A DNA stretch of 64,000 bases. Origin: an uncultured Acidobacteriota bacterium. GTDB taxonomy: Bacteria; Acidobacteriota; Thermoanaerobaculia; UBA5066. The position numbers and the translations under genes are program-made. Below are positions 33,440 to 41,333 of the stretch, in pieces. Numbering within the stretch: the first letter of the stretch is position 1; each line of letters opens with the position of its first letter. The stretch covers positions 192,001 through 256,000 of the forward strand of contig CAVZYA010000003.1 of NCBI GenBank assembly GCA_963779415.1, given 5' to 3'. The notes beneath the pieces were generated by a model that worked only from the letters and a program-made list of their open reading frames with translations, searched no databases and was not told where the DNA came from.

Positions 33440-35503
33440 ATGCGTCGCTCTCTCTTCTCGCCATCCTCGCCGTTCCAGCTCTCCTCACGGTCGTCGTGGC
33501 GCTGACCGCCCGTCGCCGCGGGCCCCGCCCGGGCGCCCGGCAAGGCCGATCGACTCCGCCAACTTCGACACGGCCGCGCTCCGTGCGCCGACTTCTACCA
33601 GTACGCGGACGGCGGCTGGCTGAAGGCGAACCCGATCCCGGCCGACAAGGGGCGCTTGGGGCTCGTTCGAGGAGGTCGTGGAGCGGAACCGCGCCATCGA
33701 GAAGACGATCCTCGAGGAGACCTCCGCGAAGACCGACTGGCCGAAGGGAAGCGTCCGGCAGAAGGTGGGCGACTTCTACGCCGCCGGAATGGACGAGGCG
33801 GCGATCGAGAAGGACGGCACGAAGTTTCTCGCCCCCTGGCTCGAAAAAGTGGACGCGCTCTCCTCGGCCGCCGACCTCCCGAAGCTTCTCGCCGAGCTCC
33901 ACTCCCGGCGCCTGCCGGCGGGCTTCGGCCTCTACATCGCGCAGGACCAGAAGGAGTCGACCCGGTACATCCCCATCCTGGGGCAGGGGGGCCTCGGCCT
34001 TCCCGATCGGGACTACTACCTCAAGGAGGACCCGAAGTCGAGGGAGATCCGCGAGCAGTACGCCGCGCACGTCGCACGGATGTTCGCTCTTCTCGGGGAC
34101 CCCTCCGACGCCGCGAGAGCGGAGGCGGACGCCGTCTTCGCATTCGAAACGAAGCTCGCGAGGGCCTCGCGGACGCGCGTCGAGCTGCGCGACCCGCAGA
34201 AGAACTACAACAAGCGGAGCCTCGCCGATCTCGCGAAGGAGGCGCCCGGCTTCGACTGGAAGGCGTACCTCGTCGCGGTCGGGATCCCGGAAGGGCAGGA
34301 GCTGAACGTCCGGCAGCCCGACTTCTTCAGGGCGTACGCGGAGATGGCCTCCGCAGAGCCGCTCTCCACCTGGAAGACCTATCTGAAGTGGCACATCCTC
34401 CACGGCTCGGCAACCCTTCTTCCGAAGCGGTTCGACGAGGAGAACTTCGACTTCTACGGCCGGACCCTGCGCGGCGTCCCGCAGCAGGAGGAGAGGTGGA
34501 AGCGCGTCCTCGCGGCGACCGACCAGGCGATCGGGGAGGCGCTGGGGCAGCTCTACGTCGAGAAGGCCTTCAGCCCGAAGTCGAAGGAGCGGATGATCGT
34601 CCTCGTCGAGAACCTGCGCGCCGCCCTGAAGGACCGGATCGAGGCGCTTCCCTGGATGGGGCCCGAGACGAAGAAGGCCGCCCTCAGGAAGCTCGCCGCC
34701 TTCGGCGTGAAGATCGGCTACCCCGACAAGTGGCGCGACTATTCCGCTCTCGAGATCACGCGCACCTCCTATTTCGAGAACGTTCTCCGCGCGCACGCCT
34801 TCGAGACGAAGCGGAACCTGGCGAAGCTGGGCAAGCCGATCGACAGGACCGAGTGGGGGATGACGCCCGCCACCGTCAACGCCTACTACAGCCCGACGAT
34901 GAACGAGATCGTCTTCCCGGCGGGAATCCTCCAGCCGCCGTTCTTCTACGCCGACGCGGACGACGCCGTGAACTACGGCGGCGATCGGCGGCGTCATCGG
35001 GCACGAGATGTCGCACGGCTTCGACGACTCCGGGAGCCAGTACGACGCCGACGGGAACCTGAAGAACTGGTGGAGCGGAGAGGACCGGAAGGCGTACGAA
35101 GTCGCGGACCGCCCTCATGGTGAAGCAGTTCGACGGCTACAAGCCCCTTCCCGACCAGGCGATCAACGGGAAGCTGACGCTCGGCGAGAACATCGGCGAC
35201 CTCGGCGGACTGAAGATCGCGTATGCCGCGCTCGCGAAGGCTCTCGGAAAGGATCCGGTCACGGCCGCGCCAATCGACGGGTTTACTCCCGCCCAGCGCT
35301 TCTTCCTCAACTGGGCGACCGTCTGGCGGAACCAGATCCGCGACGACACGCTCCGCGTCAACCTGAACACCGATCCGCACTCGCCGGGACGCTTCCGGGT
35401 CCTCGGGCCGCTCTCGAACCTCCCGGAGTTCCAGGCCGCCTTCGGCTGCGGGGCGGGGACCGCCATGAACCGCCCCGAGGCGGAACGTCCGAGCATCTGG
35501 TAG
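33440..35503 (+). CDS. M13 family (neprilysin/PepO-like) metallopeptidase, multiply frameshifted
   Basis: [58 protein letters not shown] spread over several frames. Confidence 0.88.
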
Positions 35504-35507
35504 CGGC

Positions 35508-36969
35508 GTGACGCTCCTTCTCCGCTGGGGCCGCCGGCTCGCCGTCGCCGCCGTCCTCGTCTGGGCGACGCTCGTCGTCGGCGGGGCGTTCGGCGCCCGC
35601 TCCCGCCTCCCCGACCTGAAGCCGTGGCACCGGCTCGTCCCGAAGGCCGAACTGAGAGCCTCCGACCTCGGGGAGACGGCGACGCTCGCGGACTATCTTA
35701 AGCGCGAGGACGAGACCTTCGCCGAGGTCAAGACGCGAAATCGGGGCACGGCTCACGCCGGCGGACCGCGTCGTCTCGAACCGCTACTTCGACGGGAGCC
35801 CGCTCGACCCCGACAACGCGGCGAAGAACTGGAACCGGACCTTCGAGCTGGTCCCGGAGACGATTCGCGGCGGCGTCCTCCTCGTCCACGGCCTCACGGA
35901 CTCGCCCTACAGCGTCCGGGCGCTGGCCGAGATCTACCGGGCGAACGGCTTCTATGCCCTCGCTCTCCGGATGCCGGGACACGGCACCGTGCCGGGGGCG
36001 CTGACCGAGGCGACGTGGGAGGACTGGCTCGCGGCGGTGAAGCTCGGCGCGCGGCACGTCCGGTCGCGGATCGGCGAGAAGGCGCCGCTTCACCTCGTCG
36101 GCTACTCGAACGGCGGGGCGCTCGTCCTCTCGCACGCCCTCGAGGCGCTCGACGATCCGAAGCTTCCGAAAGCCGACCGCCTCGTCCTCCTCTCGCCGAT
36201 GATCGGCGTCACCCCGTTCGCCGCCCTCGCGCGGACGGTCGGCCGGCTCGGCGTCTTCCCGTACTTCGAGAAGGCGAAGTGGACCGACGTCCTCCCCGAG
36301 TACAACCCGTACAAGTACAACTCCTTCCCCGCGAACGCCGGATGGCAGACGTGGAAGCTGACCTCCCGGCTCGAGGGACGGCTGAAGAGGCTGGCGGAGG
36401 CGGGACGCGCGGGCGAGATCCCGAAGGTTCTGACCTTCCAGTCACTCGTCGACGCGACGGTCTCGACCCCCGCCATCCTAGACCGGCTCTATTCGCGCCT
36501 CACGAAGGAAGGGAGCGAGCTCGTCCTCTTCGACGTGAGCCGGACCTCGAACCTGAAGCCCTTCCTGAAGCCCGACGGCGACGCGCTCCTCTCCCGAATC
36601 GCCGGCGACAAGGGCCGGAGGTACGTTCTGACCGTCGTCACGAACGAGTCTCCCGATACCCGCGAGGTCGCCGCGAAGAGCTACGTGCCCGGGGCGGCCG
36701 AGCCGGACGTGAAGCCCCTCGGCCTCTCCTGGCCCGCCGACGTCTACTCCCTCTCCCACATCGCCCTCCCCTTCCGGCCCGACGACCCCCTCTTCGGGAT
36801 CGATCCGGCGCTCGCCGGGACGGGCGGGTTCCACCTCGGCCTCCTCGCGCCGCGCGGCGAGAAGTCGATCCTCGTCGTCCCCGAGGAGGTCCTGATGCGG
36901 ATCTCCTCGAACCCGTTCTTTCCTTTCGTCGAGTCCCGGGTTCGCGAGGCCATCCTGCCCGCGAACTGA
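35508..36969 (+). CDS. Alpha/beta hydrolase with N-terminal anchor, frameshifted
   Basis: [22 protein letters not shown] nucleophile elbow, SLSHIALPF; frame break near 35740. Confidence 0.82.
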
Positions 36970-36998
36970 CGCGCGACCGCCCCTCACTTCCTGACCGC

Positions 36999-38676
36999 TC
37001 AGCCTCCTCGCCCCGCCCGCTCGAGGAGCTGGTCCGCCGTCCGGAGGGCCAGAGCCGTTATGGTGAGGGAGGGCGAATCCCCCGCTCCCGCTCGAAGGGA
37101 CGAGCGATCCGTCGGCGAACGCCAGATTCGGGATCTCATGGCAGAAGCCGTCGGCGCCGGAGACCGAATCCGCCGGGCCAGTCCCCATCCGGCACGTCCC
37201 GAGGACGTGTGCGGTCAGAAAGCGATCGAGGGAGGAGTATTCCTCCAACGTCTCGGCTCCGGCGGCCGAAAGGAGCGCCCGCCCCCGCTCCACCATCTCT
37301 CTGAGAAGTCGCTTCTCGTTCTCTCCGAGGCGCGACGTGATGCGTGCCACGGGGAGCCCCTGCGCGTCCGTGAGGGACGGATCCAGATCGACGAGCGTCC
37401 CCGGGTTCGGCAGCCAGTCGCCGATTCCGAGGAGGCCGACGGCGCGCCCGAAGACTTCCGCCATCCGATTCTGGTGTTCCAGCCCGAAGCCCGGGACGAG
37501 CCTTCCTGCGTAAGCCGCCGGGCCGCGCAGCCCGGCCGCGCCGTGGGCCGTGGAGAGTCGGAAACCCCCGACCGCGCCGCTTCTTCGGAGGCTCGGGACC
37601 GACTCGTCCCAGGCCGTCCCGTCGATCGGGACGCCCCGGTGCGAGTCGACCCTTTCCGGCAGGAGAGCCGTGCTCTGCCAGAGAAGCGTCTCGGTCAGAT
37701 TCAAACCGACCTGACCGGAGCCGTTCGCGAGGCCCTGCGGGAAGAGTCTCGACCTGGAGAGCAGTAGGAGCCTCGGCGTCTCGACGGCGCCTCCCGCGAG
37801 AACGACGAACCTCGCTTCGAGCCTCTGAAGCGTTCCCTCCCGGTCCATGAAGACGACGCCGGATGCGCGGCCCTTTCCGTCGACCTCGATCCGCGTGGCC
37901 GCGCTCTCGGTTCGAAGCTCCAGCCGACCCGTCCGGAGCGCTTCCGGCAGGAAGGTCACGTCGGCGCTTCCCTTGTCGCCGATGGGGCACCCCTCGGTGC
38001 ACGAGTTGCAGTAATTGCATGCCGGCCGCCCCTCGAAGGGCTCGGAGAGGATCGCGAGCGAATTGGGGACGAGCGTCAGCCCGACGGCCGAGAATGCCTT
38101 CGAGAGTCGGGTGCTGGCATACGAGAGCCGGTGAGCGGGGAAAGGTGGAGCGTTCGCTCGCGGCCGGCAGCGGATTTCCATGGGCGCCGCCACCCCCATA
38201 CGCCGTTCGGCGAGTTCGTAGTACGGCTCGAGATCCTGATACGAGATGGGCCAGTCGACGCCCGCGCCGAGAAGCGAGGACATTCTCAGGGAGTCGGGGT
38301 GATACCGGTGCGCCTCTCCCTGGAAGCGAAGCGTGCTTCCCCCGACGCCCCGGACGTGCGCGTACTGAAGGTAGAGCCGCCGGTTCCCGCGCTGCCGACC
38401 CGCCACGAGGTCGTGAGAGCGGTAATCGTCCCAGCCCGCGTCGATCTCCTGGGCGGGCCCGAAGCCGTGGCGGGGCTTGCCGCGCTCGTCTGAGTCGGGG
38501 TCGAAAGGAAAACCGCGGATCTCGAAATCGGGCGACGTCTGCGGGTAGTCGCGTTCGGGCCGGTACCGCCTTCCCGCCTCCAGGAGCGTGACGCGCATCC
38601 CCCGGGTCGTCAGCCGCCAGGCCGCCGCGAGGCCGCCCGCGCCGGCGCCGACGACGATGACGTCCGTCTCAGACAC
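36999..38676 (-). CDS. GMC family FAD oxidoreductase (gluconate/2-keto-gluconate dehydrogenase-like large subunit), frameshift near C-terminus
   Basis: VIVVGAGAGG, GVGGST, WPISY.DLEPYY, CNYCNSCTEGC cluster motif, HVLGTCRMG, SPSLTITALALR after a G5 run at about 37080; no signal peptide. Confidence 0.9.
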
Positions 38677-39850
38677 CGGGCTTCTCGGCGAAGTCCGGAT
38701 AGCCCTCCGGCTGCGGGGCGTGCGTGAACCCCACGACTTTCCAGGCTGCCGGGCTTGCGTAATGGATCTCCATCGCCCGGTTCCGGACGCTCTCATAGAA
38801 GAAGCGCGGAAGAGTTCCTTCCCCGGCGCGGGCGATCTCTCGCACGAGATCGGCGCGCCTCGCAGGGTCGAGCTCGCGAAACGACGGCGACCCGGCGCGC
38901 TTCGCGCCGCGATCGAGGAGCTCGACGCCTTCGACGAGCGCCCGCCGCGTCTGGCGCCGCTCCTCCAGTTCGGGCAGAAGCTTCGGAAGGACTCCCGTCG
39001 CCCGATGCCCCGGGAACCGGCCGTCGGGGATCAGCGTGTCCAGAAAGGCTTCCAGCGTCCTCTGCCCCGAAGCGTCCAGTCGCCCCGGGAGAAAGACCCT
39101 CTTGAGGATCCAGGCTCCGACGGCGAACGCGGCCGTTCCCAGGAGACCCTGGAGCAGGTCGCGGCGCGACCATCCGGAGGACGCGGCCGGCTCGGAACGT
39201 GGAGCCACGCCGCCCGAGACGACGAGAAGAAGGGCGACGAGGAAGACGCCGCCGGCGCATCCCGCGACGAACAGCGCCCAGGCCGCCGGGGAGCCGAGCG
39301 AAGCGGCCCGCGCCGCGACCTTCGCCACGTCGTCTCCGCGCAGGTCGAACGCCGAGGAGAATCCCGCGACCCGGGCCAGCCTCGTGATCGGGATGGACGC
39401 GGCTTCGTACGCGTCTCCCGTCAGCGACGCGACGGGCTGGAGCGCCGCCGCGAGGGCTGCTCCGAAGAAGACCGCGCTCCTCGCTCGGGCGGCTCGACGC
39501 GCCAGCGCGGCCCCGATCGTGGCCAGGAGAACGTGAGGGAGGGCGACGGTCACGAAGTAGGACACGTCCCCGGCGGGAGCGAATCCGGAGAGCCGTCCCG
39601 CGTACTCTCCCCCCGCCGAGATCCACGAAAAGTGCCGCTCGAGGAGCCGTCCTCCGAAGGCAGGTGAGATCTCGAGGCGAGTGACGGAGCCCCCCGTCGC
39701 AGCGCACCCCGCCACATGGAGCAGCTCGTGGACGGGGACGAGAATCCAGAGGCTCGCGACGAATCCGGCGAGGAGCCACGCGAGTCGCAACGCCCTGTTC
39801 TGGAGGACGGCGCCCAGCGCCGAAAGCTGGTCTTCGAGAGTTCTCTTCAG
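38669..39850 (-). CDS. Fusion of an HEXXH polytopic membrane domain (M50B/DUF3267-like) with a twin-arginine gluconate-2-dehydrogenase subunit-3-like domain
   Basis: VHELLHVAG, about 4 TMs, LTGDAYE; internal SRRDLLQGLLG; then FLDTLIP, FRELDPARR, FFYESVR..HYA..AW..VGF. Start inferred as CTG overlapping the upstream TGA. Confidence 0.65.
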   Translation of the reverse strand: MKRTLEDQLSALGAVLQNRALRLAWLLAGFVASLWILVPVHELLHVAGCAATGGSVTRLEISPAFGGRLLERHFSWISAGGEYAGRLSGFAPAGDVSYFVTVALPHVLLATIGAALARRAARARSAVFFGAALAAALQPVASLTGDAYEAASIPITRLARVAGFSSAFDLRGDDVAKVAARAASLGSPAAWALFVAGCAGGVFLVALLLVVSGGVAPRSEPAASSGWSRRDLLQGLLGTAAFAVGAWILKRVFLPGRLDASGQRTLEAFLDTLIPDGRFPGHRATGVLPKLLPELEERRQTRRALVEGVELLDRGAKRAGSPSFRELDPARRADLVREIARAGEGTLPRFFYESVRNRAMEIHYASPAAWKVVGFTHAPQPEGYPDFAEKPGV

Positions 39851-40020
39851 CGTTTCTTGCGTCGGATCGCGACCACGCCCGCCCCCATCAGCGCGAGCCC
39901 AAGGGTGATCAGCCCCGCCTCGCCGAGCGCCGGAATCCGATCCGCACGGGGCACGCCCGCCCACGACACGCCTGGCAGCAGGACGATCACGAGCAGCGCC
40001 AGCTTCACAGCCTTCTTCAT
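39847..40020 (-). CDS. 57-aa mini-protein: signal peptide, 7-aa core and IPTL-CTERM-like sorting signal
   Basis: Manual translation MKKAVKLALLVIVLLPGVSWA-GVPRADR-IPALGEAGLITLGLALMGAGVVAIRRKKR; G-rich RBS (AAAAGGGGGG) upstream; below the ORF-track size cutoff. Confidence 0.8.
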   Translation of the reverse strand: MKKAVKLALLVIVLLPGVSWAGVPRADRIPALGEAGLITLGLALMGAGVVAIRRKKR

Positions 40021-40131
40021 GTCGGTCCCCCCTTTTCGGGGAGACTATCGTGAACGGGACCTCTCCGACAACGCGAGAAGTTCCGTTCCCGGAGAATCCC
40101 GGCCCACATCAGGAATGACCTGACCTGGCCA

Positions 40132-40839
40132 TCAGCTTTTCGGGGACCAGCGCTTGGTCCGGCCGAGGACGCCCTTGATCAGCCACGGAAGCACGGCCAG
40201 AAGCGCCAGAACGCCGACGAGCGGAAGGGACCAGAGATCGGCCGGGTTCTCGACCTCCCCGAGATGAGTCCCCGCGTAGACGTAGAGCAGATAGCGGGGC
40301 AGGAGCCCGAGGAGGGAGTAGACGAGGAACGGCACGAAACGGACCGGGCTGATCGCCAGGATCACGTTCGTCACGGAGAACGGAATCACGGGGAGCAGCC
40401 GCAGCGTCAGGATGAAGTAGGAACCCTCCCGCTCCAGCCCCTCCAGCAGGTGGGGAAACCGGCGCCGCATCCTCTCTTCGACGAGATCCCATAGCAGATA
40501 GCGAAACGAGACGAACGCCACCGCGGAGGCCAGCGTGCTTCCCACGGCCACCAGCAGCAGCCCCTCCCGGAAGCCGAACAGAAGCCCGGCGGAGAGATTC
40601 ATGACCGTGCTGCCGGGCAGGCCGAAGAGTCCGAGAACCAGGTAAGCAGCCATCCAGACGCCCGGCGCCATGAGCGGACGGGCGTCCGCCCACTCGATCA
40701 GGGCGTCCTTGTGCGCCACGAGGTTGTCGAAAGTCAGGAGGCGGAGGCCCCCTGCGAGAAGGAACGCCACCCCGCCGGCCACGATCAGCACCAGCATCAG
40801 CAGGCGAAGCGGAGTCAATTCAGGCCATGGCGGCTTCAT
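40132..40839 (-). CDS. TVP38/TMEM64 (DedA/VTT) family membrane protein
   Basis: LPGSTVMNLSAGLLFG, LRLLPVIPFSVTN, YVYAG. Confidence 0.9.
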   Translation of the reverse strand: MKPPWPELTPLRLLMLVLIVAGGVAFLLAGGLRLLTFDNLVAHKDALIEWADARPLMAPGVWMAAYLVLGLFGLPGSTVMNLSAGLLFGFREGLLLVAVGSTLASAVAFVSFRYLLWDLVEERMRRRFPHLLEGLEREGSYFILTLRLLPVIPFSVTNVILAISPVRFVPFLVYSLLGLLPRYLLYVYAGTHLGEVENPADLWSLPLVGVLALLAVLPWLIKGVLGRTKRWSPKS

Positions 40840-40949
40840 GGGAGGGCTCGAGACGCACGTCCTTTTTGAAGGCTGGGCTCAGGTCTTGCACCTGTAGTCT
40901 GTCGAGTCGCCGAAGTCAGGCTTCGGTTCGAAACCATTCAATTCTTTCC

Positions 40950-41333
40950 TCAGGAACCCTTCACCTCCCCGATCGCGCTGATCTCGATGAGCGCGCCGTG
41001 GTGGAGCGGGACGGTGGGGACGACGGCGCGGGCGGGCTTGTGGGGGCCCATCACCTCGGCGTACGCCGCGTTGACGCGCCCCCAGAGGGAGATGTCCGCG
41101 ACGTAGATCGTCACGCTTACGAGGCGATCGAGGCCGCTCCCCGCGGCGACGAGAATCGCCTCGACGTTCCGGAGCGCCCGCTCCGTCTGCTCTTCGATCG
41201 AATGCGGGAGGAAGCCGGGGCGCTCCGGATCCCACGGGAGCTGCCCCGCGACGAAGACGAATCCCCCCGCGACGATCCCCTGCGAGTAGTGGCCGGCCGG
41301 CTTCGGGGCGTCCTTCGTCTCGACGACTTTCAC
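40950..41333 (-). CDS. RidA/YjgF family enamine/imine deaminase
   Basis: APKPAGHYSQG, AGQLP, KPARA, IEISAI. Confidence 0.92.
   Translation of the reverse strand: MKVVETKDAPKPAGHYSQGIVAGGFVFVAGQLPWDPERPGFLPHSIEEQTERALRNVEAILVAAGSGLDRLVSVTIYVADISLWGRVNAAYAEVMGPHKPARAVVPTVPLHHGALIEISAIGEVKGS

What the first reader, a model, noticed from the sequence alone, without database searches (positions are those of the whole stretch)
36999..40020. Candidate new system: minimal IPTL-CTERM-like peptide coupled to an HEXXH membrane protein-Tat dehydrogenase fusion and a GMC flavoprotein
Seen: three overlapping minus-strand genes. (1) A 57-aa ORF made only of a signal peptide (ending VSWA), the core GVPRADR and a tail IPALGEAGLITLGLALMGAGVVAIRRKKR. 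(2) A polytopic protein with VHELLH and a downstream Asp, fused to a dehydrogenase gamma-subunit domain. (3) A GMC oxidoreductase. Known: the motif-TM-basic cluster tail resembles IPTL-CTERM sorting signals, normally partnered with exosortase H. Other CTERM signals are paired with rhomboid or CPBP proteases. Inference: no exosortase lies in this window, so the coupled HEXXH protein may be a dedicated processing or sorting peptidase of a new type. The doubly trimmed heptapeptide could be a RiPP-like or lipid-anchored product, possibly modified by the exported oxidoreductase.
Basis: partly seen in the sequence, partly recalled or inferred. Interest (0 to 1): 0.82.

Follow-up and report, generated by a model that had tools for sequence, protein, structure and literature searches.

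The report
Mini-peptide, membrane protease, dehydrogenase cassette
A small self-contained gene cassette, seen here in twelve uncultured bacterial genomes, joins one to three tiny membrane peptides that carry a surface-sorting tag to a protease-like membrane protein and an exported flavin dehydrogenase; this combination has not been described and its product is unknown.

Summary
The 57-aa ORF passes both IPTL-CTERM models. The next ORF is a 4-helix HELLH membrane domain fused in frame to a Tat gamma subunit (PF13618). A GMC flavoprotein follows, but an extra G in a G-run breaks its last 27 codons.

Exosortase H lies about 128 kb away on the same contig. It scores over cut-off in 10 of 12 cassette genomes; the other two hold XrtH-like exosortases below cut-off.

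The linkage is real. Twelve genomes carry the cassette, and nothing else around it is conserved. Three layouts occur:
- gamma–GMC–mini(1–3)–HEXXH
- mini–HEXXH::gamma–GMC
- mini×3–gamma–GMC

In 11 of the 12 the last mini abuts the HEXXH gene. The HEXXH family is unnamed and matches true Peptidase_M50B proteins by profile (93.8%, 50 columns). Its closest studied analogue is TmcP, a 4-helix S2P-clan protease that trims a membrane-inserted RiPP precursor. All 18 minis from loci keep an Ala|Gly junction, a variable core (7 residues in 15) and a [VIAL]PxL/M tag.

Best reading (0.45): membrane-inserted precursor peptides trimmed by the HEXXH protease and XrtH, coupled to a cytochrome-less FAD dehydrogenase.

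The parts
40026..40034 (-). Shine-Dalgarno-like AAGGGGGGA, 5 nt before the ATG of the small ORF
   Evidence: Read from the sequence. A G-rich run precedes the ATG in 9 of 10 mini ORFs compared.
39847..40020 (-). Mini pre-peptide, 57 aa plus stop. Signal-peptide-like residues 1-21 (40020-39958) end in VSWA. Core GVPRADR lies at 39957-39937. The IPTL-CTERM tail lies at 39936-39850.
   Evidence: TIGR04174 24.4 bits against 20.5; PF18203 22.1 against 20.8. In the 15-sequence alignment A3, A21 G22 P30 L32 G36 L44 G46 G48 R53 are invariant. Public sets call it as a 57-aa gene; NCBI names two relatives 'IPTL-CTERM sorting domain-containing protein'.
39203..39850 (-). HEXXH membrane domain, 216 aa as read from CTG 39850. 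Four hydrophobic helices. HELLH at 39716-39730 and G-D-A-Y-E at 39404-39418. The start codon is unresolved: CTG 39850 overlaps the mini stop, TTG 39790 is the nearest canonical start, and the frame is open up to GTG 39964.
   Evidence: At least 230 homologues. H41 E42 H45 C49 P139 G145 D146 E149 are invariant in 104 sequences. hhalign against 7 true PF13398 proteins gives probability 93.8%, E 1.8e-7, 50 columns. Hydropathy and loop charges. Junction analysis.
39152..39169 (-). Internal twin-arginine motif S-R-R-D-L-L. It heads the fifth hydrophobic segment, the Tat signal-anchor of the gamma part.
   Evidence: Read from the sequence. The stand-alone gamma subunits of 6 other cassettes start with the same S/T-R-R-x-L/F motif and h-region.
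38669..39151 (-). Gamma-subunit part of the fusion (Gluconate_2-dh3, PF13618, matched at 38726-39064) and its stop, TGA 38669-38671.
   Evidence: PF13618 E 3e-8, 34.6 bits against 23.4. It is the only PF13618 match in the genome. Fusions to the HEXXH domain occur in 9 longer public proteins and in G001, L237 and L238.
37084..38676 (-). GMC flavoprotein (alpha subunit), from GTG 38676 to the G-run. The start overlaps the gamma stop by 8 nt (GTGTCTGA).
   Evidence: PF00732 E 1.9e-13 and PF05199 E 1.6e-12. Full-length match to FAD-glucose dehydrogenase 8hdd/6a2u (E 7e-46) and to the fructose dehydrogenase large subunit 7w2j. Three Cys of the C-x2-C-x2-C-x3-C-P-I-G motif are aligned.
37079..37083 (-). 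GGGGG run with one G more than the same-genus relative. It shifts the frame of the last 27 GMC codons.
   Evidence: DNA alignment of the window with L014. Sequence.
36999..37082 (-). Out-of-frame C-terminal 27 codons of the GMC gene (GDSPSLTITALALRTADQLLERAGRGG) plus stop.
   Evidence: The intact GMC genes of L014, L016 and L019 end in ...PSSG(S/A/C)GDSP(S/F)LTI(T/A)A(L/M)A(L/I)RT.D(Q/R)L(L/I)ER....

Best explanation
This is one copy of a conserved, self-contained accessory cassette with four parts.
- One to three 'mini' pre-peptides of about 57 aa. Each has a Sec-type signal peptide ending in Ala, an invariant Gly, a short hypervariable core and an IPTL-CTERM sorting signal.
- A 4-helix HExxH...P...GDxYE membrane protein of an unnamed family related to Peptidase_M50B (S2P clan).
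- A Tat gamma subunit.
- A FAD-glucose/fructose-dehydrogenase-type GMC alpha subunit. No cytochrome c subunit accompanies it.

Proposed working:
1. The mini inserts as a two-helix hairpin whose short loop faces the periplasm.
2. The signal peptide is cut at Ala|Gly.
3. The IPTL-CTERM end is handled by exosortase H, which is encoded elsewhere in the genome.
4. The HEXXH protein has its metal site at the periplasmic ends of helices 1 and 3. It acts as a site-specific membrane-embedded peptidase on the mini, as TmcP does on the membrane-inserted precursor TmcA.
5. The alpha-gamma dehydrogenase is exported folded by Tat. It stays tethered beside this machinery by the gamma signal-anchor, which in this window is fused to the HEXXH protein. 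It either oxidises the peptide product or depends on it.

Shown: the parts, their family relations, the linkage, the topology logic and the presence of XrtH.
Inferred: every cleavage, the enzyme-substrate pairing and the role of the dehydrogenase.
For: Linkage.
- 12 genomes carry the cassette in three layouts, and no other conserved neighbour was found in the 7 loci compared.
- In 11 of the 12 genomes the last mini directly abuts the HEXXH gene, whichever side the dehydrogenase pair lies on.
- HEXXH::gamma fusions occur in separate lineages (G000/G001, L237, L238) and in 9 public proteins.

Exclusivity.
- In 401 genomes of the class, full-length minis occur in 7 genomes. All 7 carry the dehydrogenase pair next to minis.
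- The cassette HEXXH proteins fall in a 17-row clade with 100% local support among 165 rows.

Protease reading.
- H41 E42 H45 P139 D146 E149 are invariant in 104 sequences.
- hhalign to true PF13398 proteins gives 93.8%.
- There are four hydrophobic helices and a basic loop, RRAARARSA. The Tat RR motif follows helix 4. Together these place HExxH and GDxYE on the periplasmic side, level with the mini's loop.
- TmcP is a DUF3267, 4-helix, S2P-clan protease. It was shown by mutation to remove the leader of a membrane-integrated precursor (PMC13712780, passages read).

XrtH substrate reading.
- 15 of 15 minis hit TIGR04174.
- XrtH is over cut-off in 10 of 12 cassette genomes.

Precursor-like pattern.
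- Conserved flanks surround a variable core in 18 located copies. The same pattern holds in most of the 97 proteins of 90 aa or less, among the 150 best hits in 1.84 billion representatives.
Against:
- G185 keeps mini x3-gamma-GMC without an adjacent HEXXH gene. Its only homologue (45% identity) lies on another contig.
- 143 of the 160 HEXXH loci fetched lie outside the cassette clade and its sister group and have no full-length mini. The commonest neighbour of the wider family is an Amidase_3 gene, in 43 of 163 loci.
- The sister group (5 loci) sits next to a Tat molybdopterin oxidoreductase and has no mini. This points to a link with Tat redox enzymes rather than with peptides.
- The family fails the Pfam cut-offs. 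The best PF13398 score is 25.4 against 26 and covers only about 30 residues. The best DUF3267 E-value is 0.033.
- Signal peptidase I plus XrtH could process the mini without any further protease.
- In this window the GMC gene is frame-shifted.
Confidence: 0.45

Rival explanations
1. First reader's version. The HEXXH protein is itself the sorting or anchoring enzyme for this CTERM signal: a new, exosortase-independent sortase type.
For: - Mini-HEXXH adjacency is conserved in 11 of 12 cassette genomes.
- The predicted active site lies at the membrane face where the [VI]PxLGE motif sits.
- Other CTERM systems use non-exosortase membrane proteases (CPBP, rhomboid); this point is recalled, not tested here.
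Against: - XrtH is over cut-off in 10 of 12 cassette genomes. The other two each have three XrtH-like exosortases.
- The tail scores as an ordinary IPTL-CTERM. It resembles the tails of large proteins of the same class (partial matches, about 1e-6 to 1e-9).
- G185 has minis but no adjacent HEXXH gene.
- A hydrolytic zincin is not expected to transpeptidate (inference).
Confidence: 0.08
2. The mini is not a substrate. It is a stable small membrane subunit, which could be any of three things:
- a two-helix hairpin that completes or gates the 4-helix protease, like the escort TmcE;
- a hairpin that inhibits the protease, like BofA on SpoIVFB (recalled);
- a membrane partner of the cytochrome-less dehydrogenase.
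For: - The mini is predicted to form a two-helix hairpin with a very short loop. Its C-terminal helix has a conserved Gly pattern (L44 G46 G48 invariant), which suggests helix packing.
- The TMcin paper proposes that other 4-helix DUF3267 proteases need 2-helix partners.
- G185 keeps the minis with the dehydrogenase alone.
- The cassette has no cytochrome c subunit.
Against: - Two or three divergent tandem copies with hypervariable cores fit precursors better than a fixed subunit.
- The Ala|Gly junction obeys the signal-peptidase -3/-1 rule in all 15 aligned copies.
- The tail passes the sorting-signal model, which predicts removal.
- TmcE has a beta-sheet between its helices; the mini has about 7 residues there.
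Confidence: 0.2
3. The HEXXH protein serves the Tat-exported redox enzyme, for instance by processing or releasing its signal-anchor. The minis are separate XrtH cargo that merely travel with the dehydrogenase genes.
For: - The domain is fused directly to the Tat n-region of gamma in several lineages.
- The sister group of 5 loci lies upstream of a Tat molybdopterin oxidoreductase and has no mini.
- The cassette gammas lack an AxA site after the h-region, so they may need another protease for release.
Against: - In the gamma-GMC-mini-HEXXH order, the HEXXH gene is separated from gamma by the GMC gene and the minis, yet it always abuts a mini.
- The wider family shows no redox neighbour.
- The sister-group loci may represent few populations.
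Confidence: 0.15
4. There is no functional unit. The small ORF and the N-terminal 'domain' are by-products of long open frames in 70% G+C DNA.
For: - Long spurious frames abound in this window.
- Public gene calls for close relatives start inside the frame and omit HELLH: P0021 at 298 aa, and P0028-P0030 at 294 aa.
- No canonical start fits in 5 of 13 junctions.
Against: - The HEXXH domain has at least 230 homologues with 19 invariant columns, most of them stand-alone genes.
- The minis keep length, frame, ATG and SD across 33-68% identity.
- The cassette recurs in three layouts.
Confidence: 0.02

Closest known systems
IPTL-CTERM sorting signal with exosortase H (NCBIfam TIGR04174 / TIGR04177; computationally defined)
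   Same: - The mini's last 29 residues pass both curated models.
- It has a signal peptide, motif, helix and basic tail.
- XrtH is in the genome.
   Different: - The usual bearers are large secreted proteins. Examples are the roughly 580-aa protein at G000:C1:789291-791159 and the S-layer protein of Methylomirabilis (PMC8671808, passage read).
- Here the 'cargo' is about 7 variable residues.
- The gene is tied to a protease-like protein and a dehydrogenase, not to XrtH, which lies about 128 kb away.
TMcin pathway of Staphylococcus aureus: TmcP (DUF3267, 4-helix S2P-clan protease), precursor TmcA, escort TmcE (mBio 2026, PMC13712780; passages read)
   Same: - A small membrane-inserted peptide is encoded beside a 4-helix HExxH + distal Asp/Pro membrane protein.
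- That protein lacks the two gate helices of classical site-2 proteases.
   Different: - The HEXXH family fails the DUF3267 and M50B cut-offs.
- No ABC transporter, thiol-disulfide protein or escort gene is conserved nearby.
- The host is a diderm.
- The peptide carries a Sec signal and an exosortase signal.
- A dehydrogenase is attached.
Membrane-bound FAD-glucose dehydrogenase and fructose dehydrogenase complexes (PDB 6a2u, 8hdd, 7w2j): alpha (FAD, 3Fe-4S), gamma (Tat hitch-hiker), beta (cytochrome c)
   Same: - The alpha subunit aligns over its full length (E 7e-46), including three Cys of the cluster motif.
- A gamma of family PF13618 with a twin-arginine motif is encoded directly upstream, with overlapping stop and start.
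   Different: - No cytochrome c gene is in any cassette.
- Gamma looks like an uncleaved signal-anchor.
- In four genomes gamma is the C-terminal part of a 5-helix fusion.
- The identity of the cluster ligands and the hitch-hiker role are recalled, not tested here.
Polytopic proteins inserted jointly by Sec and Tat, such as actinobacterial Rieske proteins (recalled, no call)
   Same: Several Sec-type helices are followed by a cytoplasmic loop with an RR motif and a last helix that carries a folded periplasmic domain.
   Different: - Here the Tat-dependent part is a cofactor-less gamma subunit that would carry a separate folded flavoprotein.
- The Sec-type part is a protease-like domain.
midcut-by-XrtH protein (NCBIfam NF033207)
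   Same: 14 of 15 minis weakly match model positions about 26-64, which cover the signal-peptide end, a short spacer and an IPTL-like helix.
   Different: - Scores are far below cut-off (17 bits against 45 for the window's mini).
- The minis lack the roughly 110 further residues of that family.
- Nothing in this genome is over the cut-off.

Membership tests
IPTL-CTERM sorting domain (TIGR04174 / PF18203) | Score at or above the curated cut-off | tested here: met
   24.4 bits against 20.5, and 22.1 against 20.8. 15 of 15 relatives match, best E 1.2e-6.
IPTL-CTERM sorting domain (TIGR04174 / PF18203) | Motif, hydrophobic helix and basic cluster at the extreme C-terminus of a protein with an N-terminal signal peptide | tested here: met
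   IPALGE, a 20-residue helix and RRKKR end the ORF. The N-terminus is MKKAVK + hydrophobic stretch + VSWA|G. The signal peptide was judged by eye and the -3/-1 rule; no predictor was run.
IPTL-CTERM sorting domain (TIGR04174 / PF18203) | Exosortase H in the same genome | tested here: met
   TIGR04177 scores 123.9 bits against 86 at G000:C3:360001-360456. It is over cut-off in 10 of 12 cassette genomes.
IPTL-CTERM sorting domain (TIGR04174 / PF18203) | Cleavage of the signal by XrtH | not testable with these tools
   Needs expression and mass spectrometry.
Peptidase_M50B-like (PF13398) / DUF3267 (PF11667), S2P clan | Score at or above Pfam's gathering cut-off | tested here: not met
   - The window's domain has no PF13398 hit at E up to 1. 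It scores PF02163 11.7 bits and PF11667 10.8 bits.
- 84 of 104 family members hit PF13398 weakly, best 25.4 against 26, over about 30 residues only.
- 61 of 104 hit PF11667, best E 0.033.
Peptidase_M50B-like (PF13398) / DUF3267 (PF11667), S2P clan | Homology by profile-profile comparison | tested here: inconclusive
   hhalign of A2 against 7 true PF13398 proteins gives probability 93.8%, E 1.8e-7. Only 50 columns align: the HExxH helix and the following loop. There is no sequence match in the PDB.
Peptidase_M50B-like (PF13398) / DUF3267 (PF11667), S2P clan | HExxH within a membrane helix, plus a distal Asp with a nearby Pro in a later helix | tested here: met
   H41 E42 H45 lie at the end of helix 1. 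P139 and D146 lie in helix 3. All are invariant in 104 sequences. Their equivalence to the S2P motif is inferred.
Peptidase_M50B-like (PF13398) / DUF3267 (PF11667), S2P clan | S2P-like fold | not testable with these tools
The Atlas holds no model.
Gluconate 2-dehydrogenase subunit 3 (PF13618), Tat gamma subunit | Score over cut-off, twin-arginine motif, and a gene directly upstream of a GMC alpha subunit | tested here: met
   34.6 bits against 23.4. SRRDLL plus an h-region. There is an 8-nt overlap with the GMC start.
FAD-glucose / fructose dehydrogenase-type three-subunit complex | Alpha subunit of this subfamily with the Cys-rich cluster motif | tested here: met
   Full-length match to 8hdd/6a2u (E 7e-46) and 7w2j. 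Three Cys align. Which Cys bind the cluster is recalled.
FAD-glucose / fructose dehydrogenase-type three-subunit complex | Cytochrome c (beta) subunit encoded with alpha and gamma | tested here: not met
   Only the cassette genes are shared by the 7 loci compared. No search of whole genomes for a cytochrome partner was made.
FAD-glucose / fructose dehydrogenase-type three-subunit complex | Intact alpha reading frame in this window | tested here: not met
   One extra G at 37079-37083 relative to L014. Assembly error and real lesion cannot be told apart; no sequencing run was listed.
TMcin-type membrane RiPP cluster | Precursor with a membrane helix, DUF3267 protease, escort, thiol-disulfide protein and ABC exporter in one cluster | tested here: not met
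   A precursor-like peptide and a related protease-like protein are present. No further conserved genes were found. The resemblance is in working principle only.
midcut-by-XrtH (NF033207) | Score over cut-off (45 bits) | tested here: not met
   17 bits for the window's mini. The best of 15 relatives has E 1.1e-4.

The most novel reading that the evidence does not exclude
The cassette makes a new kind of ribosomal peptide product at the outer face of the inner membrane of diderm bacteria.
- The hypervariable core lies between a Sec signal peptide and an exosortase signal and is cut out on both sides.
- The invariant N-terminal Gly then serves as the nucleophile for the XrtH acyl-enzyme. This would give a head-to-tail cyclic peptide of fixed ring size; alternatively XrtH hands the peptide to a lipid.
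- The 4-helix S2P-clan protein performs one of the cuts or clears the remnant helices.
- The Tat-exported FAD/iron-sulfur dehydrogenase oxidises the product, or uses it as a redox partner in place of the missing cytochrome c subunit.

If true, this would be the first natural substrate logic shown for an exosortase and a second membrane-embedded RiPP route.
Probability: 0.15. Interest if true: 0.9.

Novelty: new variant of a known kind. Interest (0 to 1): 0.66.

Why it matters
- Exosortases are widespread, yet what they do to their substrates is essentially unknown. The literature held here mentions IPTL-CTERM in 1 paper and exosortase H in none.
- A substrate reduced to a signal peptide, about 7 variable residues and the sorting signal is a minimal, mass-spectrometry-friendly probe of the XrtH reaction.
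- The cassette gives an unnamed membrane zincin family (at least 230 members) a candidate substrate. It would extend the newly shown principle of peptide maturation inside the membrane from Gram-positive TMcins to diderm Acidobacteriota and Binatia-type MAGs.
- It offers a cytochrome-less, membrane-tethered form of the FAD-glucose dehydrogenase family used in biosensors.
- The fusion would be a case of a folded flavoprotein hitch-hiking on an internal Tat signal of a polytopic protein.
- Automated annotation hides most of this. Relatives' gene calls drop the HELLH part because no canonical start precedes it.

Tried and rejected
Tools that gave nothing:
- Structure prediction of the HEXXH domain was switched off, so no fold search was possible.
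- Co-folding of mini and HEXXH domain was unreachable and then unavailable. No verdict exists.
- Atlas: the window's domain is not held. The tool was busy on the next try. For the homologue P0054 it returned only 'hypothetical' clusters and one cluster with PF13398 on 20% of members at score 0.86, and no structure.
- Sequencing runs: none was listed, and no RNA holder was listed. The frame-shift and expression could not be checked.
- Promoter and terminator scan of 36300-41000: 0 promoter-like sites, and 2 terminator-like sites against 2.8 expected.
- Supplementary files were not opened. Table S1 of the TMcin paper may bear on the DUF3267 assignment.

Ideas rejected or weakened:
- 'The CGC TGA / CTGA junction is selected to create a CTG start' is not supported as stated. 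9 of 10 mini copies that are not followed by a HEXXH gene also end in C TGA.
- A second mini peptide in this genome (C2:1273039-1273212) has no HEXXH, gamma or GMC neighbour.
- No midcut-by-XrtH protein over cut-off occurs in this genome.
- The protein downstream of XrtH and the one upstream of it have no NCBIfam hit.
- A strictly constant 7-residue core is rejected by L237/L238 (10 and 11 residues) and by the wider family. There the count is 36 of 72 parsed at 7, the rest at 3-15, and 30 of 102 short proteins not parsed by my pattern.
- An internal GTG before the Tat motif, which could express gamma separately, is not conserved; relatives have Ile there.

Technical notes:
It was repeated on ORFs within 2.5 kb.
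- The tree is FastTree only. Row L100 was put in the cassette group by identity (88%) although its contig has only 58 nt upstream.
- The tallies include the unpublished genomes G037 and G042. Without them XrtH is in 54 of 59 relatives. No other claim rests on them.

Full report
WHAT IS THERE. The window is G000:C3:192001-256000 of a 4.36-Mb, 3-contig genome with about 69% G+C. Record titles of relatives name Thermoanaerobaculia. Three tightly packed genes lie on the minus strand.

(1) The small ORF, 39847-40020, 57 aa.
- It has an ATG start, with AAGGGGGGA 5 nt upstream.
- It reads MKKAVK + hydrophobic stretch + VSWA | GVPRADR | IPALGE + 20-residue helix + RRKKR.
- It scores over the curated cut-offs of both IPTL-CTERM models: TIGR04174 24.4 against 20.5, and PF18203 22.1 against 20.8.

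(2) The long frame ending at 38669.
- It carries a 216-aa membrane domain with HELLH. An SRRDLL twin-arginine motif follows, then a fifth hydrophobic segment and a PF13618 gamma-subunit domain (E 3e-8).

(3) The GMC flavoprotein.
- It starts at GTG 38676, overlapping the previous stop by 8 nt.

- The GMC gene reaches 36999 only across a frame change. The window has five G at 37079-37083 where the same-genus relative L014 has four. The last 27 codons, conserved in L014, L016 and L019, are out of frame.
- The codon at 39850 is CTG, not a canonical start.

The neighbouring M13 peptidase gene (33678-35503, plus strand) also runs through three frames. Indel errors of the assembly are therefore a fair suspicion. 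No sequencing run was listed to check this.

THE EXOSORTASE. The genome has exactly one exosortase-family match. It lies at C3:360001-360456, outside the window and about 128 kb from the cassette. It is exosortase H: TIGR04177 123.9 bits against a cut-off of 86.
- XrtH is over cut-off in 56 of 61 relatives of the order, or 54 of 59 without the two unpublished genomes G037 and G042.
- It is over cut-off in G141, G279, G365 and G185 and in the genomes of L016 and L019.
- The genomes of L237 and L238 each have three short XrtH-like exosortases at 56-77 bits, below cut-off.
- Other IPTL-CTERM bearers in this genome are a roughly 580-aa repeat protein, a weaker large protein and a second mini peptide.

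The premise 'no exosortase, so the HEXXH protein must be the sorting enzyme' therefore fails.

THE LINKAGE IS REAL. Homologues of the HEXXH domain are many.
- At least 230 were found by the word-index search. Most are stand-alone proteins of 220-260 aa.
- 113 were found in species-representative genomes and 155 in metagenome contigs.
- The domain occurs in 46 of 401 genomes of the class.

Only the closest relatives (at least 54% identity) carry the other parts. The layouts found:
- gamma-GMC-mini(xN)-HEXXH. This is seen in G365 (2 minis), G279, G141, the L016 genome (3 minis) and the L019 genome (2 minis). It is also seen on the truncated contigs of G010 and G034, where the gamma gene is beyond the contig end.
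- mini-HEXXH::gamma-GMC. This is seen in the window, G001, L237 (1 mini) and L238 (2 minis). By their record titles the last two are Binatia and 'Deltaproteobacteria' MAGs.
- mini x3-gamma-GMC. This is seen in G185, whose only HEXXH homologue (45% identity) lies on another contig.

Further points on the linkage:
- In the seven loci compared, nothing but the cassette genes is shared.
- PF13618 occurs once in this genome, so the dehydrogenase pair is not one paralogue of many.
- With a profile of 15 minis, full-length matches in 401 class genomes fall in 7 genomes. All 7 carry the cassette. One genome has an extra orphan copy. All other matches are the tails of large proteins.
- In a FastTree of 165 HEXXH rows, a 17-row clade (100% local support) holds the 12 cassette rows and a 5-row sister group.
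- The sister group has no mini. It is followed by a twin-arginine molybdopterin oxidoreductase.
- The wider family has no such partners. Its commonest neighbour is an Amidase_3 gene, in 43 of 163 loci.
- Only L145/L147 show a weak mini nearby, in convergent orientation.

THE HEXXH PROTEIN.
- 104 aligned members share 19 invariant columns. They include H41 E42 H45 C49 G53 G54, G85 R86 L87 G89 F90, P139, G145 D146 and E149.
- No member reaches a Pfam cut-off. 84 of 104 touch PF13398 (best 25.4 bits against 26, about 30 residues), and 61 of 104 touch DUF3267.
- A profile-profile comparison with seven true PF13398 proteins from related genomes gives 93.8% probability over 50 columns. These cover the HExxH helix and the loop that follows.
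- Hydropathy gives helices at 20-44, 97-117, 126-147 and 189-212, and a basic loop RRAARARSA between helices 2 and 3.
- A Tat n-region must be cytoplasmic. The fusion therefore independently fixes the end of helix 4 in the cytoplasm. This puts HExxH and GDxYE at the periplasmic ends of helices 1 and 3, level with the mini's short loop.
- The stand-alone gammas of other cassettes begin with the same S/T-R-R-x-L/F motif and lack an AxA site. Gamma is probably a signal-anchor.

THE DEHYDROGENASE. The alpha subunit aligns over its full length with FAD-glucose dehydrogenase (8hdd, 6a2u; E 7e-46) and with the fructose dehydrogenase large subunit (7w2j). Three Cys of its C-x2-C-x2-C-x3-C-P-I-G motif align. 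Those enzymes pass electrons from an iron-sulfur cluster to a cytochrome c subunit (recalled). No cytochrome gene is part of the cassette.

THE MINI FAMILY.
- The 15 aligned copies are 56-58 aa. They have invariant A21 G22 P30 L32 G36 L44 G46 G48 R53 and a fully variable stretch of six residues after the Gly.
- All ten ORFs compared start with ATG, and nine have a G-rich SD. Substitutions favour third positions, for example 16/7/21 for the window against G001.
- The L237 and L238 copies keep Ala|Gly but have cores of 7, 10 and 11 residues and the motif [VA]P[ATV][ML][DN]E.
- Against 1.84 billion cluster representatives the profile finds 158 proteins at E up to 0.001. Of the 150 listed, 97 are 90 aa or shorter.
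- Where my pattern could parse the short proteins, the core is 7 residues in 36 of 72 and 8-12 in 31.
- Public sets call these ORFs as genes. NCBI names two of them 'IPTL-CTERM sorting domain-containing protein'.

Conserved flanks, a hypervariable core and tandem divergent copies are the pattern of a precursor peptide.

AN UNEXPLAINED JUNCTION.
- In 13 of 13 junctions the mini's TGA overlaps a CTG in the HEXXH frame (CTGA). The conserved N-terminal helix of the HEXXH protein begins exactly there. It matches the position of the ATG-initiated N-terminus of stand-alone relatives.
- In 5 of the 13 (L207, L209, L210, L016, L238) there is no in-frame ATG, GTG or TTG between the upstream stop and the first membrane helix. 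The next one lies 31-50 codons downstream, within or beyond the first helix; HExxH begins at codon +41 to +43.
- The protein must therefore start at a non-canonical codon, probably by re-initiation after the mini, or by some recoding.
- The CTGA itself is not evidence of selection. 9 of 10 mini copies not followed by a HEXXH gene end the same way.
- Several of the 13 junctions are close kin: L019/L105, and L008/L208/L210.

HOW IT MOST LIKELY WORKS. See the best explanation (0.45). Shown: the parts, their relations, the linkage and the topology logic. Inferred: signal-peptidase cleavage at Ala|Gly, handling of the tail by XrtH, proteolysis of the mini by the HEXXH protein, and any role of the dehydrogenase.

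The strongest outside support is the 2026 demonstration that TmcP removes the leader of the membrane-integrated precursor TmcA and needs a 2-helix escort. TmcP is a 4-helix DUF3267 member of the S2P clan (PMC13712780 and its preprint PMC13252029; abstracts and the passages around 'DUF3267' read).

The main rivals are:
- the mini is a stable partner rather than a substrate (0.2);
- the HEXXH protein serves the Tat enzyme (0.15);

COMPARISON AND NOVELTY. Each part belongs to, or is related to, a known kind, but I found no description of the combination.
- 'IPTL-CTERM' occurs in 1 paper, on an S-layer protein.
- 'XrtH' or 'exosortase H' occurs in none with that meaning. The one preprint that holds the words has 'exosortase homologue'.
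- 'exosortase' together with 'gluconate 2-dehydrogenase' occurs in 0 papers.

These searches cover the held open-access library only. I file the cassette as a new variant of a known kind: it works like a membrane-embedded peptide-maturation unit. It is not a member of the TMcin system, of the three-subunit dehydrogenases or of the midcut-by-XrtH family, because each fails a defining feature tested here.

LIMITS. No structure, complex, expression or read data could be obtained. The contexts of most mini-family members could not be fetched. Many loci come from related populations, so counts of loci overstate independent events. I count about nine lineages: g1, g4, G141, G365, G185, and the genomes of L016, L019, L237 and L238.

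Noticed in passing
window 33678-35503 (+): An M13-type peptidase gene runs through three reading frames, with frame changes near 34985 and near 35100. It is either a pseudogene or a sign of indel errors in this assembly. This bears on how to read the GMC frame-shift.
   Followed up: partly
G000:C2:1273039-1273212 (locus L004): A second mini peptide in the same genome: signal peptide, an 11-residue core and VPTLDG + helix + basic tail (TIGR04174 20.8 bits). It has no HEXXH, gamma or GMC neighbour. A transposase-like ORF lies next to it.
   Followed up: partly
L102:4962-8701, L103:176-3930, L104:4710-end, L015: The sister group of the cassette HEXXH proteins (57-60% identity, lower G+C) has no mini. 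It lies directly upstream of a twin-arginine molybdopterin oxidoreductase (PF00384 + PF01568) whose signal ends in a lipobox-like LEFAC.
   Followed up: partly
L224:4721-7666 (G185:C150): A cassette variant with three tandem minis (tails end RDRKR), then a stand-alone gamma and the GMC gene, and no adjacent HEXXH gene. A 62-aa Cys-rich ORF and a 724-aa sensor-like ORF lie upstream on the same strand.
   Followed up: partly
L145:978-1235 and L147:1348-1605 (minus strand): The same 66-aa peptide (signal peptide, DVEGTQT, IPTLGG + helix + basic/acidic tail) lies convergent to, and 38 nt from, a distant HEXXH homologue outside the cassette clade. This may be a second, independent pairing.
   Followed up: no
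L225:6960-7132 (G365:C15): An orphan third mini in a cassette genome. Its core starts with Ser instead of Gly (A|SVDPERTA IPTLDE). It lies in a region without gamma, GMC or HEXXH genes.
   Followed up: no
window 39847-39850, and 12 other junctions in loci: The mini stop overlaps a CTG that opens the conserved HEXXH frame (CTGA) in 13 of 13 junctions. 5 of the 13 have no canonical start that would keep the first membrane helix. Public gene calls for close relatives therefore begin downstream and lose the HELLH motif.
   Followed up: yes
window 40132-40839 (-) and 35971-36969 (+): The cassette's flanks in this genome are a VTT/DedA-type membrane protein (PF09335) and an alpha/beta hydrolase on the other strand. 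Neither is conserved beside other cassettes.
   Followed up: yes
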